From Desulfosarcina sp. (lineage in GTDB: Bacteria > Desulfobacterota > Desulfobacteria > Desulfobacterales > Desulfosarcinaceae): a DNA stretch of 60,918 bases. The stretch is from assembly GCA_030145105.1 (NCBI GenBank), contig JAQYWF010000001.1, positions 1 through 60,918 on the forward strand. The letters run 5' to 3'. This document shows positions 24,960 through 46,938 of the stretch, piece by piece. The notes beneath the pieces were generated by a model. It had not been told where the DNA came from, ran no database searches, and was given only the letters and a program-made list of their open reading frames with translations. Position numbers and translations under genes: made by a program. Numbering within the stretch: position 1 is the first letter of the stretch; each line of letters begins with the position of its first letter.

Positions 24960-25736
24960 TCACCCCAGTATCAAGCGTTGGGGATCGCACTTGTCTCTTA
25001 AGATGGATAGTTCTTCCGCGGATGGCGGCTTGATCTGTGTGGCCTGCGACGTGTCCACGGCAAAGCCCATGTTGTCGAGAATATCTTCTTTTCTCACGCC
25101 CTGGAAGCATCCATTCAGAACCATCCGCTTGGTTTCCGGATCGAATCCCATGATGGCCATGTTGGTAATCACGCAGGAAGGTCCCCCGTCCGGCAAGCCG
25201 GCCTTTTTTCGGCCGTCAGGCCCGTCGAGCCACCCGGGACTGGTCAGGTAATCCAGTTTGGGAACAAATTTTCGCTTGGCGTGCTGCATGAAGATGATCG
25301 TCCGGCTGACAAAGGATGCCACATCACAGGCACCGCCGCTGCCGGAAAACCGCACCGTCGGATGATGATAGTCGCCGATCACGGTGGAATTCAGGTTGCC
25401 GTATATGTCGATCTGGGCGGCACCCATGATGCCCACCACCTGGCGGCCGGTAAAGCGATTCTGCATGGTGGCGAAGGCATCCGCCAGGCCCCCGTTGACC
25501 GACGTGGCGAACATCACCCTTGGATCGCCCACCGCCAGGGGAACCTCCTCCAGTTGGGAGTCGATGGCGCCGGTTTCGAAAAAGATCACGCTGTTGGGTG
25601 CGCTGATATGCTTGGCCGCCATGGCGGCCAACATGGAAATGCCCGTGCCGCAGAACACGATATCGCCATCGCGGATTTCCCTGGCGGCGGCGACGGCCAT
25701 CATCTCTCGGCTGGTATACTCAATTTCAGTGGACAT
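24960..25736 (-). CDS. gctB: Family I CoA-transferase beta subunit (glutaconate CoA-transferase-like)
   Basis: 'VFCGTG', catalytic 'FETG', 'AAQIDIYGNLNST', 'GSGGACD', 'LTSPG'. Confidence 0.8.
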   Translation of the reverse strand: MSTEIEYTSREMMAVAAAREIRDGDIVFCGTGISMLAAMAAKHISAPNSVIFFETGAIDSQLEEVPLAVGDPRVMFATSVNGGLADAFATMQNRFTGRQVVGIMGAAQIDIYGNLNSTVIGDYHHPTVRFSGSGGACDVASFVSRTIIFMQHAKRKFVPKLDYLTSPGWLDGPDGRKKAGLPDGGPSCVITNMAIMGFDPETKRMVLNGCFQGVRKEDILDNMGFAVDTSQATQIKPPSAEELSILRDKCDPQRLILG

Positions 25737-25836
25737 GGGTCTATTAATCTCCGCGATGGTCGAACGTCGAATGATGAACTCGCTTTGCTCGACCCGTTTG
25801 TAAAAAGTGAGTCTACAGTTGACAGCATGCCAATCC

Positions 25837-25981
25837 AGTGTCGATTCGGAAATGGTAGATTGTGTTCCAGATCAAGGCCGCAGTGTTTTTGAAACCGGAG
25901 GCGTAGCTGGGCTACGTTGAGGATTTCAAAAACACGAGAACGCAGAGCTGGGACGCAAGATACCGTTTCCGGATTGACACT
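25837..25981. repeat. 145-bp palindromic MITE-like element (second family, shared core with 5984-6108)
   Basis: Ends AGTGTCGATTCGGAAATGGTA / TACCGTTTCCGGATTGACACT. Inner GTGTTTTTGAAA/TTTCAAAAACAC. Core AGATCAAGGC...AACGCAGA. Confidence 0.75.
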
Positions 25982-26959
25982 TCAGCGGCGATCCAGCCCT
26001 ACCGCATACCCCGTGCGCGGATCGGCCTTGATTTTCTCCAGCTGACGGTCGTCGATTCGCGCCAGCATCTCTTCATGGTTATGTGATGAGAAGACTTCCT
26101 TTTCCAGATAGGCCTGATATCGGTCATCGTCCAAGGCCGCGTCGCGATATTGGTACAACCGTGTCGGGTCATAGTCGTAATACCGGTAGCAGGCGGTGGG
26201 CCAGGCTCCCATGGGGACATGCACCACGGCATCCACATTAAAAAAGGGAATTTGGTTGCGTTCCGGTGCCCCGCGCAGGAGGTCGTCGTCGACCAGGGTC
26301 TCACAAGTGACGATGAGGTGCCTGGCAGCCTTGGCCTGTTCCACGTCGGCAAAGGGAAGGCCGCTGATGCGGGCGGTTCCCTGTCGGTCGGCTGCCTGTA
26401 CATGAATGATGGTGACATCCGGGTTGATGGCTGGCACCAGCACCACCCGCTCGGTATCGCACCAACCATCGAAGGGGTTGTCCATGACGACCAGTTTGCG
26501 ATCGGGAACACGCGCATTCGCCTGACGCGCCGTTTGCGAAAAACCCCACCGGTTGACGAGGTCTGATCCCAGCGATGAGCGCGTCGGCAGGAACGGTACG
26601 CCCATGGCACCGGCCATGAACCGCAGGGTCATCTGGTAGTTGGAGTAGTCCTCGACCGGCAGTTGCCCGGATTCGACCGCTTTGCGGAAGCGGATGCAGG
26701 TGGACGCGAACCGCCCGCTGCCGGCATAGGCAATCTCGAGCTGGTCCACGCAGCCGGCCCCGATCAGTTCGTCGACCCCCTGGCCGTTGGAGTGGGCGTA
26801 GAGATGCAGGTGGCGTTTTTTCTGGCGGATGATTTCATACACCGCCGCCATGGGATTCCGATTAATGGTAAATCCGCCGATGGAGATGTGGGCGCCGTCG
26901 GAGACGAATCGGGAAACGGCATCCGACAGGGACATCCGTTTGTTGCTGTTTACATTCAT
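25982..26959 (-). CDS. gctA: Family I CoA-transferase alpha subunit (glutaconate CoA-transferase-like)
   Basis: 'GGFTINRNPMAAVYEIIRQ', 'AGAMGVPFLP..S.LGSD', 'PAINPDVTIIHVQAAD'. Confidence 0.8.
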   Translation of the reverse strand: MNVNSNKRMSLSDAVSRFVSDGAHISIGGFTINRNPMAAVYEIIRQKKRHLHLYAHSNGQGVDELIGAGCVDQLEIAYAGSGRFASTCIRFRKAVESGQLPVEDYSNYQMTLRFMAGAMGVPFLPTRSSLGSDLVNRWGFSQTARQANARVPDRKLVVMDNPFDGWCDTERVVLVPAINPDVTIIHVQAADRQGTARISGLPFADVEQAKAARHLIVTCETLVDDDLLRGAPERNQIPFFNVDAVVHVPMGAWPTACYRYYDYDPTRLYQYRDAALDDDRYQAYLEKEVFSSHNHEEMLARIDDRQLEKIKADPRTGYAVGLDRR

Positions 26960-27171: not shown

Positions 27172-28935
27172 TTACTGAGGGTCCGCATCCGGAAGCTGAC
27201 CCGTGTCGAGCCATCCTCTCAGGCGGTAATAGTCGTCAACCAGCTGTCTCAGATCTTCGGTAGCGATGCGGCGCCCGTCAGGCAGGGCCTCGTTCAACAG
27301 CCGCTTGGGCAGCCAGTCGTCCGTGGCACGCAGGCCCTCTCTCAAATTGAAGCGGCGGGCACTGTCGGTAACACGGGCAGCCAGCGCTTGAAGATCCTGC
27401 TTGTGCATGGTTTCACCGGTGGTCAGGGCGATCAAGTCGCCGATCTCTTCCCAGGGGTACAAATCACGATAAAAGCGGCAGACAATCAAGGTGTCGAAAA
27501 GCGTGCAGCGGTCCTCAAAATCGATGAACATGGCGGCTTTGTCTTCAATCTGGTCCGGATCAATGAGACCGCTCAACTCGGGCTTGTAAAAGGTGGTCCG
27601 CAAATGGCAGGCGCCACGGTCGGCCACGGCGTAGGCCAGGCCCATGCCCTTGAGTACGCGGGGATCGTAGCCCGACGGCTCTAGCCCCTTGACATGAACG
27701 GCGATATCTTCCAGGCCCAGTTCTTCGCTGGCCGGACGGATGCCATCGGCCAGCAGTCCGCCCACATCCTGCCGCAGCACAATTTTTTTGAGCAGTGCGG
27801 CGATCTGATCAGGCTGGTTGTAGTCGATTTCCAGATCGATTTTACCCCGTCGCCGGGCTTCAATGGCAAAAGCGGCCAGGTTTCCCGAACTCATGGTGTC
27901 CAACCCCATACGGTCGCACAGATCGTTCAGATAGACGATCTCCTCGATCTGGTCGACCATGCACAGCCCGCCGAAAGCGTAGATGGTTTCATACTCCGGC
28001 CCTTCCAAGGTCAATCCCTGGTGGCGCCCCTGTTGGACACGGACCGATTTGCCACACGCCAGAAAACAGGTCCGGCAGGCCTTGGGTTTTGGCTGGCAGC
28101 GCTGCTGCATGCTCTGGGCATTGATGGCTTCAACATGCTGCACCGATCCCTGCGACCAGTACCGGCTGGGAAATCCCCCGGCCTTGTTGAGAATATCCAC
28201 CATCATGGGTGTACCGTTATTGCGGTAGGCCTGGGTGACGGCGTGATCCTTGTAGAGCGCCAATTTCTCTTTGGCGTAGGCCCTTAAGCCTTCCGGATCG
28301 GCAAAGGGGCGCTTCTGGCTGCCGTGGAAAACGACGGCCTTGATTTTCTTGGAACCCAATACCGCCCCCATCCCCGTGCGCCCGCATACCCGCCATCCGT
28401 CATTTTTGACAACTGCAAAACGGACACAGTTCTCACCGGCCGGGCCAATCACCATAATTCACGGCGACTTGGCAACCACCCGTTTGCGGACGGCCGCCTC
28501 GGTCTCGAAGGTGTCCAGTCCCCACAGGTCATCCGCCTCGTGAAAAAAGACCCCCTGGTCGGAGATCTCCAGCCACAACGGGCGTTCCGAGGCGCCCTTG
28601 ATGACAAAGGCATCGAAGCCGGCCCGGCTCATGGCAATGGCCGCACTGCCGCCGGCATAGGATTCACTGTATAGACCGGTCAGCGGAGACTTGGCGAACA
28701 TGCCATGACGGCACGATCCGTGGATGGCGCTGTCCGATGCCGGGCCAAGGGCCAACACCAGGTGGCTGTCGGGAGAAAAGGGATCGACGCCGGCAGGGTT
28801 GCGATCCAACAGCAGCTGGGTCCCCAGTCCCTTACCGCCCATGCAGGCTCGCAGGAACGCGTCGCTCAGCGCCTCTGTCTGGGAGGATCGGTTGCTCACA
28901 TCGACTGTCAGGGCCTGTTGAAAAAAACCATGCAT
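27172..28935 (-). CDS. aor: Aldehyde:ferredoxin oxidoreductase (W/Mo-pterin), interrupted by one in-frame TGA (28459-28461)
   Basis: The two ORFs share a frame: 'KSPLTG..SES', 'IGPAGEN', 'GRTGMGAVLGSK', 'CRTCFLAC', 'GPEYE', 'CDRMGLD', 'GACHL'. Confidence 0.85.
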
Positions 28936-28972: not shown

Positions 28973-30280
28973 TCAGGTACGCGAAACCTTTTCTAAACTT
29001 TCCTCGAGTATCGCCAGTCCCCTGTCCAGCTGTTCATCGGTGATGACCAGCGGCATCAGGGTGCGGATGACATTGCCAAAATTACCGCAGGATAGCAATA
29101 CCAGTCCCTTTTCATAGCAGCGGCTGACCAGTGCCTTGGCCTTGTCGGTGGCCGGTTTTTTGGATTCGCGATCCTCCACCAGTTCCATGGCCAGCATGGG
29201 GCCCTTGCCACGCACCTCGCCGATGATCTCATAGCGTTCCTGCATGGTGGAAAAGCGTGCCAGGAGGGTTTCGCCCAGCCGAACCGATTGATCGAGCAGC
29301 TTATCCTCGAACAGAATCTCCAGAACGGCAAGGGCCGCCCGACAGGAAATCGGGTTGCCGCTGTAAGTGCCGCCCAATCCGCCCACGTGGGGTGCGTTCA
29401 TCATGTCGGCGCGACCGATCACGGCCGACAGGGGCATCCCACCGGCAAAGCTCTTGGCCAGGGTGATAATATCGGGGATCACACCCCAATGGTCGATGGC
29501 AAAGAACTTACCGGTTCTGCCGACGCCGCTCTGGACCTCGTCCATGATCAGGGCGATGTCATACTTTTCGCAGATGGCTTTCAGTTTCCGGAAATACTCG
29601 GGTGGCGGGGTAACGAATCCGCCCTCGCCCTGGATGGGTTCGGCGATCACTGCCGCCGTCTGTTCCGCGGCCACATGACTGATAAAAAATTCTTCGAGGT
29701 AGTCGGCACAGGCAGTCCCGCAGGCTGGATAGGTCAAGCCGAAGGGGCAGCGGTAACAATAGGCAAATGGCATGCGGTAGACTTCCGGAGCAAAGGGTCC
29801 GAAGCCGAACTTGTATGGTTTCACCTTACTTGTCAGGGTCATACCCATCAGCGTGCGCCCGTGAAAGGCATTTTCGAAGCAGATGATCCCTGGTCGCTTG
29901 CTGGCGTAGCGGGCCACCTTGACCGCGTTTTCCACCGCTTCGGCGCCGCTGTTGGCAAACATGGTCATTTTGGCAAAATCCCCGGGTGCCAACGCATTGA
30001 GTCGTGCGGCCAGGTCCACGTAGGCCTCGTACATGGCCACATGAAAGCAGGTGTGGATGCATTTTCCGGCCTGATCCTGGATGGCCGCCACCACCTTGGG
30101 ATGACAGTGCCCCACGTTGTTCACACCGATGCCGCCAGCAAAATCGATCAGTTCACGGCCGTCGACATCCACCATGACCGCCCCGTGGGCATCTTTGATA
30201 AAAGCGGTGGTGGTGTTAAAGGGCCCCTGGGGTACGTGCTGGTTACGTTTTTCGAGCAATTCATGGTTGCGGGCTGACAT
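28973..30280 (-). CDS. gabT: 4-aminobutyrate/5-aminovalerate aminotransferase
   Basis: 'DFAGGIGV', 'NSGAEAVENAVK', 'FHGRT', 'EPIQGEGGF', 'DEVQSG', PLP Lys in 'LAKS', 'LGGTYSGNP'. Confidence 0.92.
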   Translation of the reverse strand: MSARNHELLEKRNQHVPQGPFNTTTAFIKDAHGAVMVDVDGRELIDFAGGIGVNNVGHCHPKVVAAIQDQAGKCIHTCFHVAMYEAYVDLAARLNALAPGDFAKMTMFANSGAEAVENAVKVARYASKRPGIICFENAFHGRTLMGMTLTSKVKPYKFGFGPFAPEVYRMPFAYCYRCPFGLTYPACGTACADYLEEFFISHVAAEQTAAVIAEPIQGEGGFVTPPPEYFRKLKAICEKYDIALIMDEVQSGVGRTGKFFAIDHWGVIPDIITLAKSFAGGMPLSAVIGRADMMNAPHVGGLGGTYSGNPISCRAALAVLEILFEDKLLDQSVRLGETLLARFSTMQERYEIIGEVRGKGPMLAMELVEDRESKKPATDKAKALVSRCYEKGLVLLSCGNFGNVIRTLMPLVITDEQLDRGLAILEESLEKVSRT

Positions 30281-30612: not shown

Positions 30613-31215
30613 ATGCGAAAAAATAAAAGTGCAGCACTCAGAAAACCGGACATCCTCGAGAGCTATTATCAGGTGCTCATCCAGGAGGGACTCGAAGGCA
30701 CCTCTATCAGCAAAATAGCCAGCCGGATAGGCATTCATCCGAGCCTTATCATCCATTATTTCAAGAACAAAGAGAATATGAAGCTCGAGCTCGTTGATCT
30801 GCTGATAGAAAAATATCAGTCTCCGGCAATGATCAACTTCGACCATATTGAGGATGACGAAGAACACTTCAATGCGATCATGGACGTGCTTTTCTCGTTC
30901 AAATGGAATCGAACCGTGGACCCGGGTGTGCATTTCGGTTTTTATTACCTGAGCTTGAGAAATGAACAGATCTTGGCACGCTTCAGGGTAATGTTCAAAT
31001 GGCTGCGGGACTACCTGTGTGAAAAGCTGATCTATTTCGATGAGAAAGGCATCATCAGCGTCACGGATGCGATCAAGGCTGCCGACTACATCGTTACCCT
31101 GATGGAAGGACTGGAGTTTCACTCCCAGTTTTTAGCAAACGGGAAGCATTTCGATGATTTTGCGCAATCCGCCCAAAAAATCCTGGTCAGCGCATTGAAA
31201 AACGGCGAATTTTGA
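30613..31215 (+). CDS. TetR family regulator (BetI-like)
   Basis: N-terminal HTH 'EGLEGTSISKIASRIGIHPSLIIHYFKNKE'. Confidence 0.9.
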   Translation: MRKNKSAALRKPDILESYYQVLIQEGLEGTSISKIASRIGIHPSLIIHYFKNKENMKLELVDLLIEKYQSPAMINFDHIEDDEEHFNAIMDVLFSFKWNRTVDPGVHFGFYYLSLRNEQILARFRVMFKWLRDYLCEKLIYFDEKGIISVTDAIKAADYIVTLMEGLEFHSQFLANGKHFDDFAQSAQKILVSALKNGEF

Positions 31216-31367: not shown

Positions 31368-31387
31368 TTAAACGAACGTTCAATTAA
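31368..31387. promoter_or_regulatory. Putative TetR (BetI-like) operator 2
   Basis: TTAAACGAACGTTCAATTAA, 18/20 to the same palindrome, about 85 bp upstream of the patA-aor start. Confidence 0.7.
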
Positions 31388-31471: not shown

Positions 31472-34400
31472 ATGCGAGATTACGACGAGCATTTCAAAAG
31501 CGACTACCAGGGAAGAGACATTCAGTCGGCTTATGCCGAGGCGCGCAAGATGGTGGACACCATCCTGACCCCTCCGGACCAGACCCCCCTCGAGGTCCGC
31601 CAGGACATTGCCAAGAAAACGGTGCGCAATTTCCGGGACCACATCAACAAGGGGTTTCTGGAGTATCGTAAATCCGTCACCGAGGCCGGCAACTTCGCCT
31701 ACACGGAGTGGACCGGTCAGGGATCGGTGCTGGTGGATGCCCTGGGGCGCGAATTCTTGGACATCCTGGGCGGGTTCGGTCTATACTCCTATGGTATCCG
31801 CCACCCCAAAATCGTTGCTGCGGTCAAGGCCCAACTAGACCGATCCCCCCAGTACAGCCAGGAACTGCTCGATCCGCTCCGTGCTGAACTGGGTCATGTG
31901 CTGGCCCTGCTGACACCGGGAAAAATTCAATACGGTTTTTTTGCCAATTCCGGAACCGAGGCGGTGGAAGGGGCCATGAAGCTGGCCAAGCTGTACACCG
32001 GTAAAAAGGGCTTCATCGCCTGCCTCAAGGGGTTCCACGGCAAGACCCTAGGCAGCCTGTCACTCATCGGCAAGAAAGTCTTCCGCGAGCCCCTCATGCC
32101 GCTGCTGGACGGGGTGCAGCATGTGCCCTTCGGGGATGCCGATGCCGTTGAACAGATGCTGGCGGCGGCCAAAGCCGTGGGGCAGGACATCGCCGGCGTG
32201 GTGGTCGAACCGATCCAGGGCGAAGCCGGCGCCATCGTGCCGCCGGACGACTTCTGGCCGCGACTGAGAGAAGTGTGCAACCATTACGGCGTGCTGCTGA
32301 TCGCCGACGAGGTTCAGACCGGTTTCGGTCGCACTGGGAAGATTTTCGGTGTAGATCACTGGGAAGTGACCCCGGACATCATGTGCTTCGGTAAAGCCCT
32401 GGGAGGCGGCGTCGTGCCCATGAGCGCCTTTTTCTCCACCCCTGAAATCTGGTCATGCATGGAACCCAACCCCTTCATGCACACCACCACCACCGGCGGC
32501 AACCCGCTGGCCTGTTCAGCCGCACTGGCGGCCGTCACCGTGCTGATCGAGGAAGACCTGGCCGAGCAGGCCCGCAAGAAAGGCGAGTATGTTCTCAACC
32601 ATCTTGAAACGTTGAAAGCACGCTACCCCGGCGTACTGGCCAAAACCCGCGGACTGGGCTTGTTGCTGGGCATGGAGTTTCCCACGGACGGCATCGGTTA
32701 CAAGGTCGCCTCCGGGCTCTTCTCACGGGGCGTGCTCACCGCCGGAACCCTCACCAACGCCAAGAATATCCGCTTCGAACCGGCCCTGACCATTCCACAA
32801 GATATCCTGGACGAGGTGCTCAACCGTCTCGAGGATGTGTTTAAATCCATCGAGCGGCCCCAACGCGAAAAGGTCAGCAACCTATACGCCGGCCGCATGC
32901 TGCACATCGACCTGTCGTCCGGCAAGGCCACCGCCGAACCCCTCAACGAGGCGTGGGCCCGGGAGTATATCGGCGGCTGGGGACTGGGGGCCAAATACTA
33001 CACCGAATCGGTGGATCCCACAGTGGAACCCCTCTCCGTCGAAAACAATTTCGTAGTCATGACCGGCCCCATGGCCGGGACGCTGGCTCCGACCGGCTCG
33101 CGCACCTGCCTGGTCTCCAAATCGCCCCACACCGGGACGATCTTCGAATCCAACATCGGCGGTGCCTTCGGTCCCGAACTGAAATTTGCCGGCTATGACG
33201 GCATCGTCATCAGCGGCAAGGCCGATAAGCCGGTGTGGCTAAAAATCGAAGACGACGCCGTATCCATAGAGAATGCCGATTCCCTGTGGGGCAAGGGCAT
33301 TTTCGAAACCGAGCAAGCCCTGGAAGAGGAAGTCGGCCTCGGCATGAAAAGCCTGGCCATAGGCCCGGCCGGCGAGAACCTGGTGACCTTTGCCTGCGTC
33401 GGTTCGGAGTCCTACCGGCAGATGGGCCGGGGCGGCGTGGGCACGCTGTTCGGCTGCAAAAATCTCAAAGCCATCGCCGTCAAGGGAACCGGCGGCGTTC
33501 AGGTGGCCGAGATCGGTGAATTCTGGGGTAAGGTGTCCGAGCATCTGGAAGACAACCTGATGACCATCGACAATCAGTGGGCCAAGGATCAGGGCACTCC
33601 CATGCTGGTGGATGTGACCAACGAGATGGGCATCCATCCCACCCGTAACTTCACCAACGGGGTCAACCCCCATCGCCGCAAACTGGACGCCGACGCCGTG
33701 ATGGACATCAAGATCGGCGACCGCGCCTGTGCCACCTGCCCCCTGGGCTGCGGCAACTTCACATCGATCAACGGCGTCCAGGTCGAGGGCCCGGAATACG
33801 AAACCCTTTGCCTGGGCGGATCCAACTGCGAGATCAACGATATGGAGCAGGTCATGCGCTTTAACCGCAAGTGCGACGACCTGGGGCTGGACACCATGTC
33901 CACCGGCAATATCATTGGCTTGGCCATGGCCCTGACCGAGTCCGGCGCTGCCGACCTGGGCCTGACCTTCGGCGATGCCGAGGCTTACCTGCAGGTTCTG
34001 GATGAGATGGCCAACCGCTCCACCGAGCGCGGCCGCGATCTAACCCTGGGCGCCGCCAAACTGGCCGACAAATACGGCCGGCCCGATCAGGCGGCCCACT
34101 CCAAGGGACTGGAAATGCCGGCCTATGACCCGCGAGGCAACTACGGCATGGGCCTGGCCTACGCTACCAGCGAGCGAGGTGCCTGCCATCTGCGTGCCTT
34201 TCCCCTGTTTGCCGACGATCCTTTCAAGCTCAGAGACCTGGCCAAAGAGGTCGTGGCCATGCAAAACACCAACGGGGCCAAATGGTCCATGTGCTTCTGC
34301 GATTTCTGGGGATCGGTTGACACGACCATCATGGCCGACCTGCTTACGAAGGGCTTGGGGCGCCAGTTTTCCGCGAAAGATCTGGACAAGGTCGGCGAGC

Positions 34401-34639
34401 GGGTCTGGAACCTGGTGCGCATGTTCAACCTGGCGGCGGGATTCACCGCGGCGGACGACGTCCTGTCCGAAAAGTTCACCCGACGGGCCCTGGAAAACGG
34501 CCCCCACGAGGGCCGCGTCCTGGCCCCCGAGACGATGGAAGAACTCAAGGGTTTCTACTATCGCCAGCGGGGATGGGATGAAGACGGCCAGCCCAAGGCG
34601 GCCAAGCTTCATCAGCTGGGACTGAGCGACCTGAAATAA
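31472..34639 (+). CDS. patA: Fused putrescine aminotransferase (PatA/YgjG-like) / aldehyde:ferredoxin oxidoreductase
   Basis: AAGGAG RBS. N half: 'GFLEYRKSVT', 'FHGKTLGSLS', 'DEVQTG', 'FGKALGGG', 'HTTTTGGNPLAC'. C half from about 32885: 'YAGRMLHIDLS', 'IGPAGEN', 'CATCPLGC', 'GPEYE', 'CDDLGLD', 'GACHL', 'YYRQRGWD'. Confidence 0.93.
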   Translation: MRDYDEHFKSDYQGRDIQSAYAEARKMVDTILTPPDQTPLEVRQDIAKKTVRNFRDHINKGFLEYRKSVTEAGNFAYTEWTGQGSVLVDALGREFLDILGGFGLYSYGIRHPKIVAAVKAQLDRSPQYSQELLDPLRAELGHVLALLTPGKIQYGFFANSGTEAVEGAMKLAKLYTGKKGFIACLKGFHGKTLGSLSLIGKKVFREPLMPLLDGVQHVPFGDADAVEQMLAAAKAVGQDIAGVVVEPIQGEAGAIVPPDDFWPRLREVCNHYGVLLIADEVQTGFGRTGKIFGVDHWEVTPDIMCFGKALGGGVVPMSAFFSTPEIWSCMEPNPFMHTTTTGGNPLACSAALAAVTVLIEEDLAEQARKKGEYVLNHLETLKARYPGVLAKTRGLGLLLGMEFPTDGIGYKVASGLFSRGVLTAGTLTNAKNIRFEPALTIPQDILDEVLNRLEDVFKSIERPQREKVSNLYAGRMLHIDLSSGKATAEPLNEAWAREYIGGWGLGAKYYTESVDPTVEPLSVENNFVVMTGPMAGTLAPTGSRTCLVSKSPHTGTIFESNIGGAFGPELKFAGYDGIVISGKADKPVWLKIEDDAVSIENADSLWGKGIFETEQALEEEVGLGMKSLAIGPAGENLVTFACVGSESYRQMGRGGVGTLFGCKNLKAIAVKGTGGVQVAEIGEFWGKVSEHLEDNLMTIDNQWAKDQGTPMLVDVTNEMGIHPTRNFTNGVNPHRRKLDADAVMDIKIGDRACATCPLGCGNFTSINGVQVEGPEYETLCLGGSNCEINDMEQVMRFNRKCDDLGLDTMSTGNIIGLAMALTESGAADLGLTFGDAEAYLQVLDEMANRSTERGRDLTLGAAKLADKYGRPDQAAHSKGLEMPAYDPRGNYGMGLAYATSERGACHLRAFPLFADDPFKLRDLAKEVVAMQNTNGAKWSMCFCDFWGSVDTTIMADLLTKGLGRQFSAKDLDKVGERVWNLVRMFNLAAGFTAADDVLSEKFTRRALENGPHEGRVLAPETMEELKGFYYRQRGWDEDGQPKAAKLHQLGLSDLK

Positions 34640-34720: not shown

Positions 34721-35266
34721 ATGGAAAAACACCTGATGGCCATTCCCAACCGATGTACCGGATGCAATCGATGCGTGTATGCCTGCTCAGCGGTCAAGGA
34801 GGGGATGTTCATACCCTCCAAGGCGCGGGTGCAGGTCAGCAACTTCACCCACGAAGGATACTCGGTGCCCAACGTCTGTTTTCAATGCCCTAAAGCTGCC
34901 TGCATGGAGGCCTGCCCCACCGACGCGATCTTCAAGAGCGACCGCGGCGTTATCGTCGTGGACGCCAAGAAATGCGACGGCTGCGGCAACTGCGTGGACG
35001 CCTGCCCCTATGGCATGATCGAGCAGTACGTTTCCGGCACGGCCTATAAATGCGACCTGTGTGGCGGCGCCCCGGCCTGCGTGGCCGAGTGCCACTATGG
35101 CGCCCTGGTATTCAAGGAAGCCGACAACGTGTTGCTCAAGTGCCGCAAGGAGCAGATGAAGCAACGCCAGAAAGAGGGAGGGTCGGCTGAGAAACGGCGC
35201 GCCCTGGCCGTTGAAGTGCTCAAAGGGGCTGAACGGGTACCCCGCACTGCCGGGTATATGGGCTGA
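34721..35266 (+). CDS. 4Fe-4S polyferredoxin (likely AOR electron-transfer subunit)
   Basis: GGAGG RBS. CTGCNRCVYAC, CFQCPKAACMEACP, CDGCGNCVDACP, KCDLC...CVAEC. Confidence 0.92.
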   Translation: MEKHLMAIPNRCTGCNRCVYACSAVKEGMFIPSKARVQVSNFTHEGYSVPNVCFQCPKAACMEACPTDAIFKSDRGVIVVDAKKCDGCGNCVDACPYGMIEQYVSGTAYKCDLCGGAPACVAECHYGALVFKEADNVLLKCRKEQMKQRQKEGGSAEKRRALAVEVLKGAERVPRTAGYMG

Positions 35267-35317: not shown

Positions 35318-35465
35318 TCAGAAAACAAAAAAATACCCAAAAACCAAATGACAAATAAATAACAATAGCTAAAATTCCAAACAACTATTGGTTTGGATAA
35401 TGTTGAGAATTGGTTATTGCAATTTGGAATTTATTTGAGATTTGGTGCTTGGAATTTGTTGTTTC
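35318..35465. repeat. AT-rich long hairpin repeat, copy 1
   Basis: CCAAATGACAAATAAAT pairs with ATTTATTTGAGATTTGG. Three blocks are shared with 43774-43975. Confidence 0.75.
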
Positions 35466-35500: not shown

Positions 35501-36598
35501 ATGATGCCCCAAACACGCACCAGCACACCATTGGAAGACGGCTACCGCATGCCCGCAGAATTTGAACCCCACCGGGGATGCTGGATGCTGTGGCCCGAGC
35601 GGGGAGATACATGGCGCATGGGCGCAAAACAGGCCCAGGCCGCCTTTGCCGAAGTGGCCGCGGTCATTGCGGCCTTCGAGCCGGTGACGGTCGGCGCCAG
35701 CCGCGGTCAATGGGAAAACGCCCGGGCCATGCTGCCCGATGCGGTCCGGGTGGTGGAGATCTCCTCGGACGATGCCTGGATGCGGGATGTGGGCCCCACC
35801 TTTGTGATCAATGAAGGCCAAGAGACCCGCGGGGTCGACTGGCACTTCAACGCCTGGGGCGGCTTGGAAGGCGGCATCTACTTCCCCTGGTCCCAGGACA
35901 GCATGGTGGCCAGGAAAGTTCTCGAAATCGAAGGCGCCGACCGCTACCGCGCCCCCCTGGTCATGGAGGGCGGTTCTTTTCACGTGGACGGCCAAGGCAC
36001 CTTGATCACCACCGAGGAGTGCCTGCTCAATTCCAACCGCAACCCCCAACTTACCCAGCAGCAGATCGAGGCCTCGCTGAAAACCTACCTGAATATGCAC
36101 AAGGTGGTCTGGCTCGATAAAGGGGTGTACATGGACGAGACCGACGGCCATGTGGACAACCTGTGTTGTTTCGTCAAACCCGGGGAAGTGCTGCTCACCT
36201 GGACCGATGATCCCGACGATCCCCAGTACGAGATATCCAGGCAGGCCCTGGAGAAACTTTCCGCCGCAACGGACGCACGTGGACGGTCGCTGGTTGTCCA
36301 CAAGATCCATCAGCCCGATCCGATGGTGGTCTCCGCAGCGGAATGCGAGGGATTGGACGCCAGCGAGACGGCCAAACCCCGTAAGGCCGGTGACCGGCTG
36401 GCCGCCTCTTACGTCAATTTTTATATCGCCAACGGCGGGATTGTCATGCCGCTTTTAGACGACACCCACGACCGGGCGGCCATGGACCTGCTCGCCCGGC
36501 TCTTTCCGGACCGAAGGGTCGTTGGCGTCAGAAGCCGGGAGATCCTGCTGGGAGGCGGAAACATCCACTGCATCACCCAGCAGATCCCGATGGGTTAA
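35501..36598 (+). CDS. aguA: Agmatine deiminase
   Basis: 'MPAEFEPH...WPER.DTW', 'DAWMRDVGP', 'FNAWGG', 'EGGS', 'ETDGHVDN', '[11 protein letters not shown]'. Confidence 0.95.
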
Positions 36599-36676: not shown

Positions 36677-36916
36677 GACGGTTTCGTTAAAAGCCCGATA
36701 TCAAGGTTTGCGAGCCGCGATAGTGAGCGTGATCACCGTCGTTTTTGACGGAATCAGCGAGCGAACTGAAAATCGATCGTCATCCATACGGCGAATCTTC
36801 CCCGCACGGTTTGCCGCGGGGGAGATTCAATCCCGAGGAATGAGGTGTACTTACCGTACTCCGCAGTGACGAGGGATGAAGCGTAACGCAGATATCGTGT
36901 TTTTTACGAAACCGTC
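36677..36916. repeat. MITE/ERIC-like element, copy 2, with a 115-bp nested insert
   Basis: Ends GACGGTTTCGTTAAAAG / TTTTTTACGAAACCGTC. Insert about 36714-36828 relative to copy 1. Confidence 0.85.
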
Positions 36917-36932
36917 AATATTAGAGGAGACC

Positions 36933-37808
36933 ATGGCCACCATCAAAGTGGCGGCAACCCAAATGCCGTGCAGTTCCAAAGTAGAGGAAAACCTTTCAGT
37001 CGCAGAGATGATAGTGCGAACCGCAGCAGGCCAGGGTGCAACAATTATCCTGCTTCAGGAGTTGTTCGAGACCCTGTACTTCTGCCAGGTGGAAAAGCCA
37101 GATTTCTTCTCGCTGGCCACCTCTCTGGAGGATAACCCGGCCGTCAGGCGTTTCTCGACAATCGCGGCAGAACTGCAGGTCGTTTTGCCGATCAGCTTTT
37201 TCGAGAAAAAAGGCCAGTCCTTCTTCAACAGCCTGGCGGTAATCGATGCCGACGGATCCGTTTTGGGAACCTACCGCAAAACCCACATCCCCGATGGCCC
37301 GGGGTACGAAGAGAAATACTACTTCAGCCCGGGCGATACCGGATTCAAAGTCTGGAAAACACGCTACGCCACCATCGGCGTGGGCATCTGCTGGGATCAG
37401 TGGTTTCCAGAAGCCGCCAGATCCATGGCGCTGATGGGCGCTGAGATGCTGCTCTACCCCACGGCCATCGGGTCCGAGCCCCTGAATCTGTCCTATGACA
37501 GCCAGCCCCACTGGCAGACCTGCATGCAGGGTCATGCCGCCGCCAACATCATGCCGGTTGTCGCCTCAAACCGCATCGGCAGTGAAACCATCGACGGGTC
37601 CACCCTGACCTTCTATGGATCATCGTTTATCACGGACAACAAGGGTGCACTGATTGCCCAAAGCGACCGACAGTCCATGGGCGTCATCGTTGCTGAACTG
37701 GACCTGTCGGCCTATTCCGCAGAACGAGCGGCGTGGGGCCTTTTCCGCGACAGGCGACCCGACGCCTATGAGAGGCTGTTAACCCTGGATGGTGACCACC
37801 CGTCATGA
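36933..37808 (+). CDS. aguB: N-carbamoylputrescine amidase
   Basis: GAGGAG RBS. Nitrilase triad 'LQELF', 'YRKTHIPDGPGYEEK', 'ICWDQWFPE', plus 'YPTAIGSEP'. Confidence 0.95.
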   Translation: MATIKVAATQMPCSSKVEENLSVAEMIVRTAAGQGATIILLQELFETLYFCQVEKPDFFSLATSLEDNPAVRRFSTIAAELQVVLPISFFEKKGQSFFNSLAVIDADGSVLGTYRKTHIPDGPGYEEKYYFSPGDTGFKVWKTRYATIGVGICWDQWFPEAARSMALMGAEMLLYPTAIGSEPLNLSYDSQPHWQTCMQGHAAANIMPVVASNRIGSETIDGSTLTFYGSSFITDNKGALIAQSDRQSMGVIVAELDLSAYSAERAAWGLFRDRRPDAYERLLTLDGDHPS

Positions 37809-38257: not shown

Positions 38258-38528
38258 AGTGGTCCCCGACCCGGCCAGAAAGGCTGGACACCTTAATGCA
38301 ATACCTGGGAAGCGGCATCCTCGTGGCCCACAATGCCGCGTTCGATCTGCATCTTCTGAACCGTCTGATGAGGGAGCACCAAGGATTCGCGCTACAGAAT
38401 CTGGTCATCGACACCCCATTTTATTTCCCTCTGCTGGCCCGCTATTCGTTCCCATTGACAGTTCATTGAAAAAACTCATACTATTGAACCGTGACAACTT
38501 ACCAACTCATTTCTTGCGAATTGTAGCC

Positions 38529-42687: not shown

Positions 42688-43734
42688 TCAATGGGACTTG
42701 GCGCGCGTCCAGGCTTCATCCATAATCCGGTTGTCCTTGCCCAGATCCTTGGTGAAGTGAAGTTTTTTCATGATCGCGGGTGTCGGGTAAATTCCCGGAT
42801 TTTCCAGATCTTCAGGCGTGATGAACGCCTCGGCCGCCGCATTGGGGGTCGCATACTGGTTGTAGTTGGACAGCTCGGCACCGACTTCGGGCTCCAGCAG
42901 CCAGTTGATCCACTTGTGTGCGGCGTCCGGGTTGGGCGCTTTGCTGGGGATACACATGGAATCATACCAGATTTCACTGCCCTCGCTGGGGATGATGAAA
43001 CCCAGCTTGTCCGGCTCTTCGGTGACCGACTGAATGGCATCCCCGTTATAAACGATGGCCGCCACCGCCGTACCGGCGACCACATCGTTCTTGCCACCCA
43101 CGCCTGGCTTGAAGCCCATGCAGTTTTTCGACCGCTTGGCGGCCACCAGCAAGTCGGCAGCGGCTTTGAGATCCGCGGGCTTGGTACTGTTAAAATCCTT
43201 GCCCTGGTAAACCAGGGCGATGCCCATCATCTCGCGCACGGAATCGATCAGCCAGAATGCACCGGGCTGTTTTTTGGCATCGAACAACACCGACCAGGAC
43301 TGAGCGGCGGCGTCACTGACCTTGTCCTTGCGATACATCAGCCCCACCGTGCCCCACTGATAGGCGACGGAGTATTTGTTGCCCGGGTCATAGCTGGCTT
43401 CCCGGAAAAGGGGTTTGAGGTTCTTCAGGTTGGGAAGTTTGGCGTGATCCAGCGGCTGGACCAGCCGCTGGTTGATCAACACCGGCATGATGTAATCGGA
43501 AGGCACGATGATGTCATACTGACTGGCCCCGCCGGCCTGCAGTTTGGCCACCATCTCCTCGTTGTTCTCGTAGATGTCCAGACGGACCTTGATGCCGAAC
43601 TTCTCTTCAAAATCAGCCGGCATCTTTTCCTCGTCCATATACTCCGACCATGTGTAGACCCTCAATTCTTCGGCACTGGCCGCCATCCCGCCAAAAAGCA
43701 CCAATACCAACACAAGCAGGCTACATTTTCGCAT
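42688..43734 (-). CDS. potD: Polyamine ABC transporter substrate-binding protein
   Basis: Signal peptide, 'YTWSEY', 'YDIIVPSDY', 'YQWGTVG', 'PSEGSEIWYD'. Confidence 0.92.
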   Translation of the reverse strand: MRKCSLLVLVLVLFGGMAASAEELRVYTWSEYMDEEKMPADFEEKFGIKVRLDIYENNEEMVAKLQAGGASQYDIIVPSDYIMPVLINQRLVQPLDHAKLPNLKNLKPLFREASYDPGNKYSVAYQWGTVGLMYRKDKVSDAAAQSWSVLFDAKKQPGAFWLIDSVREMMGIALVYQGKDFNSTKPADLKAAADLLVAAKRSKNCMGFKPGVGGKNDVVAGTAVAAIVYNGDAIQSVTEEPDKLGFIIPSEGSEIWYDSMCIPSKAPNPDAAHKWINWLLEPEVGAELSNYNQYATPNAAAEAFITPEDLENPGIYPTPAIMKKLHFTKDLGKDNRIMDEAWTRAKSH

Positions 43735-43773
43735 CCTATCTCTCCTTTAGGGTTCCGGGTTTTTAGTTCCAAT

Positions 43774-43975
43774 TTCAGAAAACAACAATAGCCAAATGAC
43801 AAATAAATCACAATTGCCAATTTCAAAATTCCAAACCTGACGGTCTTGAAGGAAGGACATTCCAACCATCAATATTTGAGAAACCAATATAATAACAAAT
43901 AGTTTTTTTTACCCCGTTTGAGATATGGATATTGTAGTTTGGAATTTATTTGAGATTTACTATTTGTTGTTTGTG
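43774..43975. repeat. AT-rich long hairpin repeat, copy 2
   Basis: Shares CCAAATGACAAATAAAT, AAAATTCCAAAC and TTTGGAATTTATTTGAGATTT with 35318-35465. Confidence 0.75.
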
Positions 43976-44035
43976 ACTTATCAGTGCTTTGGATCACCGG
44001 TTCAGGTTTACAATGCCTCCATAACCCTGAATCTC

Positions 44036-44839
44036 TCAAACAATTTTTTCCTGCCGGCGGGTAAACCGCTCAGTCAACACGACCAAGACCACCGTGACCA
44101 GCATAATCAAGGTCGACAGGGCATGGATTTGCGGGGTAACTCCCCTTCGAACGGCTGCAAAAATAAACAGCGGCAGGGTTTGCGAATCAGGACCGGCAGT
44201 GAAAAAACTGATCACGAAATCATCCAGGGAAAGCGTGAAGGCCAGCATGGCACCGGCGATAATGCCCGGCATCAGCAGCGGCAGCATCACCTTTCTGAGC
44301 AGGTACCAGTTCGTGGCAAACAGATCCCTGGCCGCCTCCTCCACCTCCCGGCCGATGGCCACCAGGCGGCTGCGCACCACCAGGGCGACAAAGGCGATCT
44401 GAAAAGTGATGTGGCCGATGATCATGTTCAACAGGCCGGGCTCGAAAATGGACGATGCCAGTCGCAGCAGGCCGAATGCCACCACCAGGGATGCGGCCAG
44501 GATGATGTCAGGAATGATCACGGGAATGTGCAGGATGATATCCAGAAAATTGCTAGTCCGGGAACGCCAGGGAAAGCGATCCATGGCGATGGCCAGGATC
44601 GTACCCAGGATCGTGGCAATGATGGTGGATATCACCGCCAGCAGCAGGGTGTTCCAGGCGGCTTCGAGAATCCATTCGTTTTCGAAGAGCTTGAGATACC
44701 ATTTCAAGGTGAACCCTTTCCACACCATCCCTCGACGGGCGGCATTGACGGAGAATATCGCCACGCCCACCAGCGGCATGTAGAGAAAGGCCATGGTCAG
44801 ATAGGAAATCGCGACGACTAAGGGGTGCTGGCGCCTCAT
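44036..44839 (-). CDS. potC: Polyamine ABC transporter permease
   Basis: 'FTLKWY', 'EEAARDL', 'FTLSLDDFVISFF'. Confidence 0.92.
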   Translation of the reverse strand: MRRQHPLVVAISYLTMAFLYMPLVGVAIFSVNAARRGMVWKGFTLKWYLKLFENEWILEAAWNTLLLAVISTIIATILGTILAIAMDRFPWRSRTSNFLDIILHIPVIIPDIILAASLVVAFGLLRLASSIFEPGLLNMIIGHITFQIAFVALVVRSRLVAIGREVEEAARDLFATNWYLLRKVMLPLLMPGIIAGAMLAFTLSLDDFVISFFTAGPDSQTLPLFIFAAVRRGVTPQIHALSTLIMLVTVVLVVLTERFTRRQEKIV

Positions 44840-45750
44840 ATGACCTCGATCTCCTTGCCTTTACGGCGGTAAATTTGAAGTCCGATCATGGTCAACACCA
44901 TCAAACCCATGCTGATCGCCGCCCCGAACGGCCAGTCCCGGCTGGTGCCGAACTGCTGCTGGATGAGATTGCCCACCAGCATGTATTTGGCTCCGCCGAG
45001 CAGATCGGGAACGACGAACATGCCCATGGCGGGGACGAAGGTCAGGATGATTCCCACCGACAAACCCGGCATCGTCTGAGGCAGAATGGCCTGGGTAAAG
45101 GTCCTGAACCGCGAGGCATACAGGTCCTGGGCCGCTTCCACCAGCGACCAGTCCAGACGTTCCACGCTGGCGTATAGCGGCAGGGTGACGAAGGGCAGGA
45201 ACATGGAGACCATCCCCAGATATACGGCAAATGCATTGGGGTAAAGCGGCGCACCGTCCGGGATAAAGCCAAAAATCGCCGCCAGCCGGGCAAAGGGCAG
45301 CTCCGGTGACAAGATCAGGAACCAGGCGTAGGCCCGGATGACCATGTTGGTCCAGAACGGGATGATAACCAGGGTGAGCCACAAGTAACGGCTGTGCTCG
45401 GGTCGACCAGCAATGAAAAAACACAGGGGATAGGAGAGGATGACGGATACCAGGGTGGTAAAAAAGGCCACCACCACCGACCGCCAGAGGATCATCAGGT
45501 AATCCGGGGTCCAGCCGAAAAGAGTAAAACCGGCCAGCCGCTTGTAATTTTCCAGGGTGAAGACCCATTCCAGTTGACCATAGGCCCCCCGGGTGACCAC
45601 ACTCACGACCACCAGCACCAGGCTGGGCAGCACGAGAAACAGCATCAGCCAGAGCATCCCGGGCGTCAGGAGCAGTGACCCGCGTTTGAGCAACTGCTGC
45701 CGGGTGGTCAATTCCCCGTACCAGGTTAGTATCGAATCAGCGCGCTTCAT
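44836..45750 (-). CDS. potB: Polyamine ABC transporter permease
   Basis: '[14 protein letters not shown]', 'EAAQDL', 'QQF...RDWPFGAA'. Confidence 0.92.
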
Positions 45751-46798
45751 CTTCAAGAATCACCAATTCCTTGGAAGCCAGTTCCAGCCAGACCTCCCTG
45801 CCAGGATCGATTCGCCGGTAGGAACTGGTGCGCACCCGCAATGGCCCAGGTTCCAACCAAAGGTCGAAATTGGTTCCCCGGTAAACGATTTCAGTCACAC
45901 GCGCACGGATGCCATTGCGCTCAGGCTCCTTGTCGCCGATACCGATCCACTCCGGACGTATCGCCACGGTGCCCTCCTGCCAGACGGGCTCTTTGTCCAG
46001 GGCCAGGAAGCCGAAGGCCGTTTGAACACCACCCGGCGCTTTGGTGCAGGGAATCAGGTTGGCCGCCCCCAGGAATTTGGCCACGAAGCTGTCGGTGGGG
46101 TTGTCGTATACCTCTTCAGGCGACCCGCACTGGACCACACGGCCCTGGCGCATCACGGCCAGCCGGTCGCTGCAGACCAGGGCTTCAGATTGATCGTGGG
46201 TGACCAGAATAAAGGTCCGCCCCAGTTTACGCTGCAACCGCCGCAGGTCTTCCTGCACTTGGGCGCGCAGGCGCGCATCCAGGGCGCTCATAGGCTCGTC
46301 CAGCAGCAGCACATCGGGTTCGTTCACCAATGCCCGGGCCAGGGCGACCCGTTGCTTCTGGCCGCCGGACAGTTGATGGGGATGACGCTGGGCCATGGAG
46401 CTTAAATCCAACATCTCCAGCCGACGATTCACCCGTTTTTTGATTTCGGCATCCGGAAACTTGCGGGAACGCAGCCCGAAAGCGATATTTTCATAGATGG
46501 TCAGGTGGGGAAACAGGGCATAGCTCTGAAACACCGTGTTCACCTGGCGTTTGATGGCGGGCAGGCGGGTGATATCTTTGCCGCCACTGAAAACCTGACC
46601 CGAGTCGGCCAGTTCGAGCCCGGCAATGATTCGCAACAGCGTGGTCTTACCGCATCCCGACGGGCCCAGCAGCGTGAAAAATTCTCCCGGCGCGACGTTC
46701 AGGGTAACGTCGTCCAGGGCGATTACATCGCCGAACTGTTTGCAGATATGTTTTACCGTAAGGCCTTGGTCAGTCGTGGGATTCTGGTTCTGGTTCAT
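45737..46798 (-). CDS. potA: Polyamine ABC transporter ATP-binding protein
   Basis: GPSGCGKTT, '[13 protein letters not shown]', LSGGQ, LLDEP. Start MNQNQ with GAGG RBS. Confidence 0.92.
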
Positions 46799-46938
46799 AT
46801 CCTCGGAGATCCGGAAGCGTGATCCAAACAAAGCGTTAACAACAAAAGGCTGGCAATAAGCCTGCAATTGAAATCGGTTCGGGTCGAACAGTGAGAATAG
46901 AAACGACGCTTAAACCCAGACAACCGTCTGGCTGCGGT

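What the first reader, a model, noticed from the sequence alone, without database searches (positions are those of the whole stretch)
31472..34639. Putrescine aminotransferase fused to a tungsten-type aldehyde:ferredoxin oxidoreductase
Seen: one uninterrupted 1055-aa ORF joins a complete PatA-like class III aminotransferase (about aa 1-460) to a complete AOR. The short linker (SIERPQREKVSNLYAG) has no stop, no Met/RBS and no homopolymer longer than 4. Known: PatA makes 4-aminobutanal or 5-aminopentanal, which cyclise spontaneously to pyrroline/piperideine, and the characterised next step is an NAD-dependent dehydrogenase (PatD/PuuC). Inference: the fusion hands the unstable aminoaldehyde to a pterin site and yields reduced ferredoxin through the adjacent polyferredoxin (34721-35266). 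I know of no characterised PLP-W/Mo-pterin-FeS bifunctional enzyme of this kind, but I cannot search to confirm this.
Basis: partly seen in the sequence, partly recalled or inferred. Interest (0 to 1): 0.92.

Follow-up and report, generated by a model that had tools for sequence, protein, structure and literature searches.

The report
Putrescine transaminase fused to tungsten oxidoreductase
Many sulfate-reducing bacteria, including one cultured strain, carry a single gene joining a putrescine aminotransferase to a tungsten-family aldehyde oxidoreductase, a protein that likely converts putrescine to GABA while saving the electrons as reduced ferredoxin instead of NADH.

Summary
The fusion is real. 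The 1055-aa ORF holds Aminotran_3, AFOR_N and AFOR_C, contigs from two public runs cross the junction without gaps, and 120 of 120 listed homologues share the architecture. The cultured strain Desulforapulum autotrophicum HRM2 has it too (WP_015903312.1, 70% identical). Both halves keep their catalytic residues. Fused copies form one clade on both trees, and 51 of 55 are followed by a WorS-type polyferredoxin inside agmatine/putrescine/GABA gene clusters. Most unfused close PatA relatives sit beside a different, distant tungsten oxidoreductase, almost never an NAD dehydrogenase. Both PatA partners have Asp after the last Fe-S cysteine, whereas the GabT-linked enzyme has Arg. Best reading: putrescine to 4-aminobutanal to GABA plus reduced ferredoxin. 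This is inferred, not assayed. Channelling and the metal are untested; split and secondarily broken forms exist. I found no paper describing the fusion. This scan earlier noted unfused aminotransferase/AOR polyamine operons on other DNA (Chloroflexota). Verdict: new variant of a known pathway, now directly testable.

The parts
31472..34639 (+). PatA-WOR fusion gene, 1055 aa (P0001)
31472..32854 (+). Putrescine aminotransferase (PatA/YgjG-type class III) half, aa 1-461; PLP lysine K308 at 32393-32395
32846..32893 (+). Short linker, aa 459-474; same length in 100 of 105 relatives, one residue longer in 5
32876..34639 (+). AOR/WOR large-subunit half, aa 469-1055; 4Fe-4S cysteines C753/C756/C760/C943, second-shell T709, E777, Y885, H906
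34298..34303 (+). C943-D944: last Fe-S ligand followed by Asp, candidate amine-binding residue (inferred)
34721..35266 (+). Polyferredoxin, WorS/AorA-type small subunit (16 Cys in four groups read from the sequence)
30613..31215 (+). TetR-family (BetI-like) regulator, found near 33 of 55 fused and 13 of 17 unfused loci
31368..31387 (.). Palindrome about 85-105 nt upstream of the fusion, unique in the genome at up to 2 mismatches; candidate TetR operator (inferred)
35501..36598 (+). Agmatine deiminase AguA (over cut-off)
36876..37808 (+). N-carbamoylputrescine amidase AguB (over cut-off)
28973..30280 (-). 4-aminobutyrate aminotransferase GabT (TIGR00700 over cut-off), divergently transcribed
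27172..28935 (-). Second WOR (AOR2, Arg after the last Fe-S Cys), candidate succinate/glutarate-semialdehyde oxidoreductase; the in-frame stop at 28459-28461 reads as Gly in three DNA runs
24960..26959 (-). Two-subunit family I CoA-transferase; best solved relative of the A subunit is glutaconate CoA-transferase (1poi)
42688..46867 (-). Spermidine/putrescine-type ABC transporter genes (potABCD-like)

Best explanation
The gene encodes one polypeptide with an intact putrescine-type aminotransferase and an intact tungsten-family aldehyde oxidoreductase, which likely work in series: putrescine (from uptake or from agmatine) is likely transaminated to 4-aminobutanal, which is likely oxidised to GABA with electrons predicted to pass through the neighbouring polyferredoxin to ferredoxin. 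Shown: the fusion, its residues, its conservation and its gene neighbourhood. Inferred: the substrates (cadaverine may be used as well), tungsten as the metal, ferredoxin as acceptor. The divergent gabT, second WOR and CoA-transferase would take GABA (or 5-aminovalerate) on to succinate (or glutarate) and its CoA ester, so both NAD(P) dehydrogenases of the E. coli route (PatD, GabD) would be replaced by low-potential WORs. The fusion most plausibly arose once, by read-through between adjacent genes, and gives co-production and proximity rather than a tunnel. Proximity could matter because 4-aminobutanal cyclises to 1-pyrroline and aldehyde-to-ferredoxin oxidation runs close to equilibrium at low aldehyde.
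For: PatA half: all 13 E. coli YgjG PLP- and putrescine-site residues named in PMC4244111 are present; 11 are invariant in 105 of 105 relatives, F91 is F83/Y22 and Y402 is Y98/F7. WOR half: equivalents of PfAOR R76, R182, T243, C288/291/295/494, Y312, E313, D338, D343, Y427, H448 are invariant in 105 of 105; model matches 9mqx/1aor at rmsd 2.6 A. Context: 49 of 55 fused loci hold aguA, aguB, speB, pot or gabT; 51 of 55 hold the polyferredoxin; an ALDH lies in 3 of 72 loci. Interchangeability: 14 of 17 unfused relatives and 10 of 13 close unfused PatAs of an order-wide sample (partly the same loci) sit beside a different WOR (AOR11, about 30% identical); 7 of 9 family members with a divergent PatA carry PatA+AOR11 in the same gabT/AOR2/aguA neighbourhood. 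Asp after the last Fe-S Cys in 105 of 105 fused and 21 of 22 AOR11 proteins, Arg in 14 of 14 GabT-linked WORs; AOR11's nearest tree neighbour has Leu there. No PatD/PuuC among 6 ALDH matches in this 87%-complete genome (5 classified, 1 fragment); PatD-like NF010000 over cut-off in 8 of 401 genomes of the order, including 1 of the 28 long-frame carriers. TupA/TupB-like genes, MoeA and RnfC are present.
Against: No activity data. The WOR clade is not tied to PatA: of the stand-alone sister loci read, only L099 is a patA operon and L129 a pot cluster, while L078/L079 lie beside choline dehydrogenase and L100, L101 in other contexts. Asp at that position occurs in 23 of 144 other WOR cluster representatives, and in AaAOR the equivalent residue contacts the pterin (PMC10413684), so it may be structural; the pterin-binding D489 is Trp in 105 of 105 fused proteins. 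Among 27 more distant unfused PatA-like genes only 4 have a WOR nearby. 3 of 13 close unfused PatAs have no WOR in the stretch read, and G726 has neither this WOR clade, AOR11 nor a listed PatD. The genome has its own GabD-like dehydrogenase. TupA and TupB score just under their cut-offs (357/400, 293/320). Related loci are not independent samples.
Confidence: 0.75

Rival explanations
1. True substrate channelling: the two halves dock in a fixed way so that open-chain 4-aminobutanal passes from the PLP site to the tungsten site without equilibrating with pyrroline in solution. This extends the best explanation rather than replacing it.
For: Linker length fixed in 100 of 105 relatives. Surface-type residues R52, R55, K151, K202, G407 and Y107 are conserved in at least 101 of 105 fused PatAs but rare in 31 unfused ones, on a long stem branch (0.23-0.24). 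Both halves follow similar sub-clades.
Against: Split orthologous operon exists (L099); L125 and L127 keep fused-type PatA without the WOR half; the separate AOR11 does the job in many relatives; linker is the least conserved part (mean column identity 0.63 vs 0.91 and 0.81); clade-specific residues are also expected from common descent alone.
Confidence: 0.18
2. The WOR half is a general scavenger of cationic or other aldehydes (betaine aldehyde, 3-aminopropanal, spermidine-derived aminoaldehydes) that is merely co-regulated with PatA; the fusion is a tolerated read-through and PatA's product is not its main substrate.
For: Sister WORs beside choline dehydrogenase and a CutC-like glycyl radical enzyme; characterised AORs are mostly broad-spectrum detoxifying enzymes (PMC13328260); Met and, in 8 of 25 cases, a ribosome-binding-like 4-mer survive in the linker (13% background).
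Against: Fusion kept across several families at 70-91% identity; independent recruitment of AOR11 to the same position; near absence of ALDHs beside PatA.
Confidence: 0.12
3. The enzyme runs in reverse as a biosynthetic route: reduced ferredoxin reduces GABA to 4-aminobutanal, which is aminated to putrescine.
For: AORs can reduce acids (PMC12096430 supplement table); TamH is a precedent for a reductase-transaminase fusion that makes amines (PMC9594044 abstract).
Against: Neighbours are uptake systems and enzymes that already make putrescine from agmatine (aguA, aguB, speB), plus gabT and a CoA-transferase.
Confidence: 0.04
4. The fusion is an assembly or annotation artefact of two adjacent genes.
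For: None found.
Against: Bridging contigs in two runs; 120 of 120 listed homologues fused; ungapped 1041-residue alignment to the HRM2 protein.
Confidence: 0.01

Closest known systems
E. coli putrescine transaminase pathway (PatA/YgjG, PatD, GabT, GabD; PDB 4UOX; PMC4244111, PMC9397018)
   Same: PatA fold and all listed PLP/putrescine-site residues; GabT next door; putrescine-to-GABA-to-dicarboxylate logic.
   Different: No PatD beside it or found in this genome; the aldehyde steps appear to be taken by WORs, the first of them fused to PatA.
Class II WORs (WorL + WorS) and clade-87-type AORs: PfAOR 1AOR, AmWOR1 9MQX, AaAOR 8C0Z, CaAFOR 9G7J (PMC13328260, PMC12096430)
   Same: Fold, Fe-S ligands, second-shell catalytic residues; polyferredoxin is closest to AmWOR1 WorS and AorA.
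   Different: N-terminal 460-aa PLP enzyme; D489 to Trp, L495 to Asp, Y452 to Phe; no NAD-linked subunit gene beside it; none of the classes described includes a PLP domain or an aminoaldehyde role.
P. furiosus FOR (1B25/1B4N), proposed glutarate-semialdehyde oxidoreductase
   Same: Uses a charged residue after the last Fe-S Cys (R492 by alignment); the window's second WOR has both R481 and R492 equivalents.
   Different: The fused WOR has Asp at that place. That R481/R492 bind glutarate's far carboxylate is recalled from memory, not found in a searchable paper.
TamH (PMC9594044), natural class III transaminase-thioester reductase fusion
   Same: N-terminal PLP transaminase fused to a redox domain that shares an aldehyde intermediate.
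   Different: NADH-dependent, biosynthetic, makes amines from acyl-ACP; no pterin or Fe-S.
Desulforapulum autotrophicum HRM2 protein WP_015903312.1 / ACN14525.1
   Same: Same fusion, 1052 aa, 70% identical without gaps.
   Different: Uncharacterised; databases name only one half. It is listed in the sequence set of a WOR tree (PMC12096430 supplement) with no mention of an aminotransferase in that paper's main text or in the genome paper's main text (PMC2702500).

Membership tests
Putrescine aminotransferase PatA | Score over a curated family cut-off | tested here: inconclusive
   Over PRK11522 (640.6/612), under TIGR03372 (493/659)
Putrescine aminotransferase PatA | PLP-binding residues K300, D271, F180, V273, G150, T151, T332 | tested here: met
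   Invariant in 105 of 105
Putrescine aminotransferase PatA | Diamine-specificity residues F91, Q119, E243, F327, Y402, L419 | tested here: met
   All present in P0001; F91 83F/22Y, Y402 98Y/7F, others invariant
Putrescine aminotransferase PatA | Putrescine:2-oxoglutarate activity | not testable with these tools
   Needs assay
WOR/AOR family large subunit | AFOR_N plus AFOR_C domains and AOR fold | tested here: met
WOR/AOR family large subunit | Four-Cys 4Fe-4S ligands and aldehyde-oxidising residues T243, E313, Y427, H448 | tested here: met
   Invariant in 105 of 105
WOR/AOR family large subunit | Both pterin-binding DxxGL(C/D) motifs | tested here: inconclusive
   First motif kept (D802, D807); second changed, D489 equivalent is W938 in 105 of 105
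WOR/AOR family large subunit | Tungsten-bis-pterin cofactor | not testable with these tools
   Genome has TupA/TupB-like genes and MoeA; metal not measured
Class II WOR (WorL + WorS, ferredoxin-linked) | Adjacent four-cluster WorS gene, no WorN/WorABC gene beside it | tested here: met
   Polyferredoxin follows 51 of 55 fused genes; best PDB hits are WorS/AorA; next genes are aguA/aguB
Class II WOR (WorL + WorS, ferredoxin-linked) | Enzyme consists of WorL and WorS only | tested here: not met
   WorL carries a 460-aa PLP enzyme at its N-terminus
Class II WOR (WorL + WorS, ferredoxin-linked) | WorL-WorS complex that reduces ferredoxin | not tested
   No complex prediction or assay
Channelling bifunctional enzyme | Fixed inter-domain interface or tunnel and protected intermediate | tested here: inconclusive
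   AF2 model pTM 0.64 with a poorly modelled PatA half; sequence hints both ways

The most novel reading that the evidence does not exclude
A PLP-tungstopterin-FeS bifunctional enzyme that channels open-chain 4-aminobutanal between its sites, heading an undescribed anaerobic polyamine pathway in which two charge-matched tungsten enzymes (Asp for the aminoaldehyde, Arg for the acid semialdehyde) replace both NAD dehydrogenases and yield two pairs of low-potential electrons per putrescine; the Asp/Arg position would predict substrates across the WOR family.
Probability: 0.2. Interest if true: 0.88.

Novelty: new variant of a known kind. Interest (0 to 1): 0.68.

Why it matters
Only five of 92 WOR clades have a defined physiological role (PMC13328260 abstract). 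This fusion names a likely substrate for one uncharacterised clade and, by gene replacement, for a second, and it suggests how sediment sulfate reducers could gain reduced ferredoxin from polyamines. PatA long-frame (fused-type) genes make up 28 of 68 PatA matches in a 401-genome sample of the order, so this is not a rarity. Databases label the protein by one half only, which hides it. A cultured strain (D. autotrophicum HRM2) carries it, so the claim can be tested now, and the fused versus separate forms give a natural test of whether tethering helps with an intermediate that cyclises.

Tried and rejected
Selenocysteine in the second WOR: the in-frame TGA (28459-28461) reads GGA in runs X1, X7 and X9 and close relatives are intact, so it is a window-specific error or allele. 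Full-length AlphaFold2 model: mean pLDDT 69, PatA half poor, nothing on the interface. Expression: RNA-run contigs touch both halves (X17) and the gene end plus polyferredoxin start (X18), none crosses the linker; these do not show transcription level or a single transcript. Internal restart at the linker: a ribosome-binding-like 4-mer precedes the linker ATG in 8 of 25 junctions versus 13% for other Met codons; weak, related sequences, absent in this window (one search used a faulty pattern and was redone). First C+1 tally captured only 34 of 120 fused proteins because of a pattern filter; redone on 105 of them by alignment. The 95 'stand-alone sister' proteins may include cut fusions (P0136 nests inside the fused clade). 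No Rfam match in 24000-48000. Literature searches listed no paper on this fusion or on a WOR in putrescine breakdown; one search was swamped by unrelated papers. Schut et al. 2021 (PNAS) was not held and Table_1 of PMC13328260 was too large to read; either could list the fusion.
Full report
OBSERVATION. The ORF at 31472-34639 (+) reads 1055 residues without a stop and carries Aminotran_3 (81-456), AFOR_N (474-673) and AFOR_C (691-1051). It passes NCBIfam's PRK11522 putrescine aminotransferase cut-off but not TIGR03372's. Its best solved relatives are E. coli YgjG for the first half and P. furiosus AOR for the second; no listed structure covers both. Contigs of runs X1 and X7 cross the junction without gaps. 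All 120 listed homologues (best of 1752 hits) have the three domains at 70-91% identity. The fusion is real.

DISTRIBUTION AND HISTORY. Of 72 GTDB loci returned (best 80 of 153 confirmed stretches), 55 have PatA and the start of the WOR in one frame, three of them broken later inside the WOR, and 17 have a free PatA. Named carriers are mostly uncultured Desulfobacterota; the closest are labelled Desulfosarcina sp. In a 401-genome sample of the order, 57 genomes gave 68 PatA matches, of which 28 lie in open frames of 850 aa or more (counted by hand; only three candidates per genome were scored). In a phylum sample 4 of 401 genomes matched, all four linked to this WOR clade. Fused PatAs form one clade (SH-aLRT 100; 25 fused, 17 unfused, 6 divergent rows), as do the fused WOR halves. 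L099 shows the split state: patA, speB, orthologous WOR (63%), polyferredoxin, speB, gabT. The linker has the same length in 100 of 105 relatives and 61 keep a Met where a free WOR would start, which fits a single read-through event. Two free PatAs nest inside the fused clade and end in linker remnants, so the WOR half can be lost again. A cultured carrier exists: WP_015903312.1/ACN14525.1 of Desulforapulum autotrophicum HRM2, 1052 aa, 70% identical over 1041 ungapped residues.

BOTH HALVES LOOK ACTIVE. Mapping E. coli YgjG numbering through the alignment, all 13 PLP- and putrescine-site residues named in PMC4244111 (part 2 of 4 read) are present; 11 are invariant in 105 of 105 fused proteins (105 of the 121 fused sequences were aligned). 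In the WOR half the equivalents of PfAOR R76, R182, T243, C288/C291/C295/C494, Y312, E313, D338, D343, Y427 and H448 are invariant; these are the residues that PMC13328260 (two of four parts of Results read) and PMC12096430 (passages and two sections) give for aldehyde-oxidising members. Departures: D489 is Trp, Y452 is Phe, L495 is Asp. The 181-aa gene behind it has 16 cysteines in four groups and is closest to AmWOR1 WorS and AorA; it follows 51 of 55 fused genes and 0 of 17 unfused ones. The layout is that of a class II WOR with a PLP enzyme added.

CONTEXT. The window reads: CoA-transferase AB, second WOR, gabT (minus strand); then TetR, fusion, polyferredoxin, aguA, aguB; potABCD-like genes 5-9 kb further. 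49 of 55 fused loci hold aguA, aguB, speB, pot or gabT, and only 3 of 72 loci hold an aldehyde dehydrogenase. This 87%-complete genome has six ALDH matches; the five whole ones are GabD-like, piperideine-6-carboxylate, P5C, benzaldehyde-type and acylating enzymes, none PatD or PuuC. A PatD-like family passes its cut-off in 8 of 401 genomes of the order, including one of the 28 long-frame carriers. TupA/TupB-like genes (just under cut-off), MoeA and RnfC are present.

INDEPENDENT SUPPORT FROM REPLACEMENT. 14 of 17 unfused relatives have a different WOR (AOR11, about 30% identical to the fused one) nearby. All 40 short-frame PatA matches of the order sample were fetched: 10 of 13 close ones (73-80%) sit beside AOR11, 4 of 27 distant ones (39-55%) have a WOR nearby, and 1 of 40 has an ALDH; several stretches end at contig ends and three repeat loci seen before. 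In the window's own family, 7 of 9 genomes with a divergent PatA carry PatA + AOR11 in the same gabT/AOR2/aguA neighbourhood. Two of three genomes whose close PatA has no WOR beside it hold AOR11 in another pot/agu cluster; G726 does not. So the step after PatA has been filled by WORs from two distant branches.

A SPECIFICITY HINT. The residue after the last Fe-S cysteine is Leu, Leu, Val or Ile in four broad-spectrum AOR structures and Arg492 in FOR (alignments). FOR has been solved with glutarate bound (PMC12096430); that R481/R492 hold its far carboxylate is my recollection and no searchable paper confirmed it. This position is Asp in 105 of 105 fused proteins, 21 of 22 AOR11 and 93 of 95 sister proteins, and Arg in 14 of 14 GabT-linked WORs, which also match R481. 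Among ten readable WORs of this genome Asp occurs only in the fusion and Arg only in the GabT partner. AOR11's nearest tree neighbour has Leu, so its Asp may be convergent (long branches flagged). Background is 23 Asp and 18 Arg among 144 cluster representatives, and the equivalent AaAOR residue contacts the pterin (PMC10413684 passage), so this is a post hoc hint, not proof. It fits an amine-bearing aldehyde for the PatA partners and an acid semialdehyde for the GabT partner; sister WORs beside choline dehydrogenase (cationic betaine aldehyde) fit too.

MECHANISM. Shown: one polypeptide, two complete catalytic modules, a WorS gene, a polyamine-catabolic neighbourhood, WOR-for-ALDH replacement in gene order. 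Inferred: putrescine (PotABCD uptake, or agmatine via AguAB or SpeB) + 2-oxoglutarate gives 4-aminobutanal + glutamate; the WOR oxidises it to GABA and passes electrons through 4Fe-4S and WorS to ferredoxin; GabT and the second WOR give succinate, which the CoA-transferase would activate. Cadaverine to 5-aminovalerate to glutarate is equally open, as E. coli PatA uses cadaverine comparably (PMC9397018 passage) and the transferase resembles glutaconate CoA-transferase. Why fuse: 4-aminobutanal cyclises and pyrroline dominates at basic pH (PMC10648994 passage), and aldehyde oxidation coupled to ferredoxin is barely favourable at low aldehyde (PMC13328260), so nearness may matter more here than for PatD. 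Against strict channelling: split and broken forms exist and the linker sequence drifts. For it: fixed linker length and six fused-specific conserved PatA residues, four of them basic. The structure model could not decide and no complex prediction was obtained.

WHAT IS KNOWN. Searches (listings only) showed no paper on this fusion or on WOR-linked putrescine breakdown. The 2026 WOR classification has no 'aminotransferase', 'putrescine' or 'polyamine' in its main text or in three readable supplements; its large Table_1 and Schut 2021 could not be read. The HRM2 protein is in the sequence list of the 2025 review's tree without comment, and the HRM2 genome paper's main text does not mention it (term search). 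TamH (abstract) is the nearest precedent for a transaminase-redox fusion but is NADH-linked and biosynthetic. Earlier notes of this scan describe unfused aminotransferase/AOR polyamine operons in Chloroflexota and a GabT/AOR pair; none reports this fusion. I did not check the Chloroflexota claims and do not count them as evidence.

VERDICT. Observation confirmed; interpretation partly supported. A conserved, apparently undescribed PatA-WOR fusion, best read as a ferredoxin-yielding variant of the putrescine transaminase pathway (0.75); true channelling about 0.2. New variant of a known kind; interest 0.68, raised by the cultured carrier and the testable Asp/Arg rule, lowered because all function is inferred.

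Noticed in passing
window 28459-28461: In-frame TGA splitting the second WOR; three DNA runs read Gly there and close relatives are intact, so not selenocysteine.
   Followed up: yes
L157:70-3201 (-), genome G726: A different PLP-WOR fusion: AFOR_N + AFOR_C followed by a Pyridoxal_deC domain (1043 aa; looks sphingosine-phosphate-lyase-like, a recalled resemblance), beside an FGGY kinase. A second aldehyde-forming PLP enzyme tied to a WOR.
   Followed up: partly
P0247, P0273: WOR large subunits fused to OMP decarboxylase/HUMPS-family domains, which may link a WOR to formaldehyde fixation.
   Followed up: no
L078:506-4028, L079: Stand-alone sister WOR + polyferredoxin directly before choline dehydrogenase BetA, suggesting a ferredoxin-linked betaine-aldehyde oxidoreductase in place of BetB.
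   Followed up: partly
window 35332-35465: AT-rich dispersed repeat between the polyferredoxin and aguA: 55 matches in the genome, folds as a long hairpin (z -3.5), many contigs in DNA and RNA runs, no Rfam match.
   Followed up: partly
window 31368-31387: Palindrome upstream of the fusion, conserved in close relatives, with similar sites before some unfused patA genes (15 of 81 upstream regions at up to 4 mismatches); candidate operator of the adjacent TetR.
   Followed up: partly
L125:6015-7454, L127:5991-7391: Stand-alone PatA genes nested in the fused clade and ending in linker remnants: secondary loss of the WOR half.
   Followed up: yes
L026:6195-9359: The Olavius Delta 1 symbiont carries the fusion and polyferredoxin; no paper on it was listed.
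   Followed up: partly
window 47334-48647 (-): Saccharopine-dehydrogenase-like gene next to the pot genes; similar genes recur beside PatA-like genes in relatives, possibly a spermidine/carboxyspermidine step.
   Followed up: no
window 38199-39326: Transposase remnant (DUF772) after aguB.
   Followed up: no
L158:2477-5560 (own genome): Another long class III aminotransferase fusion (APH + Peptidase_M23 + Aminotran_3, 1027 aa), unrelated to WORs.
   Followed up: no
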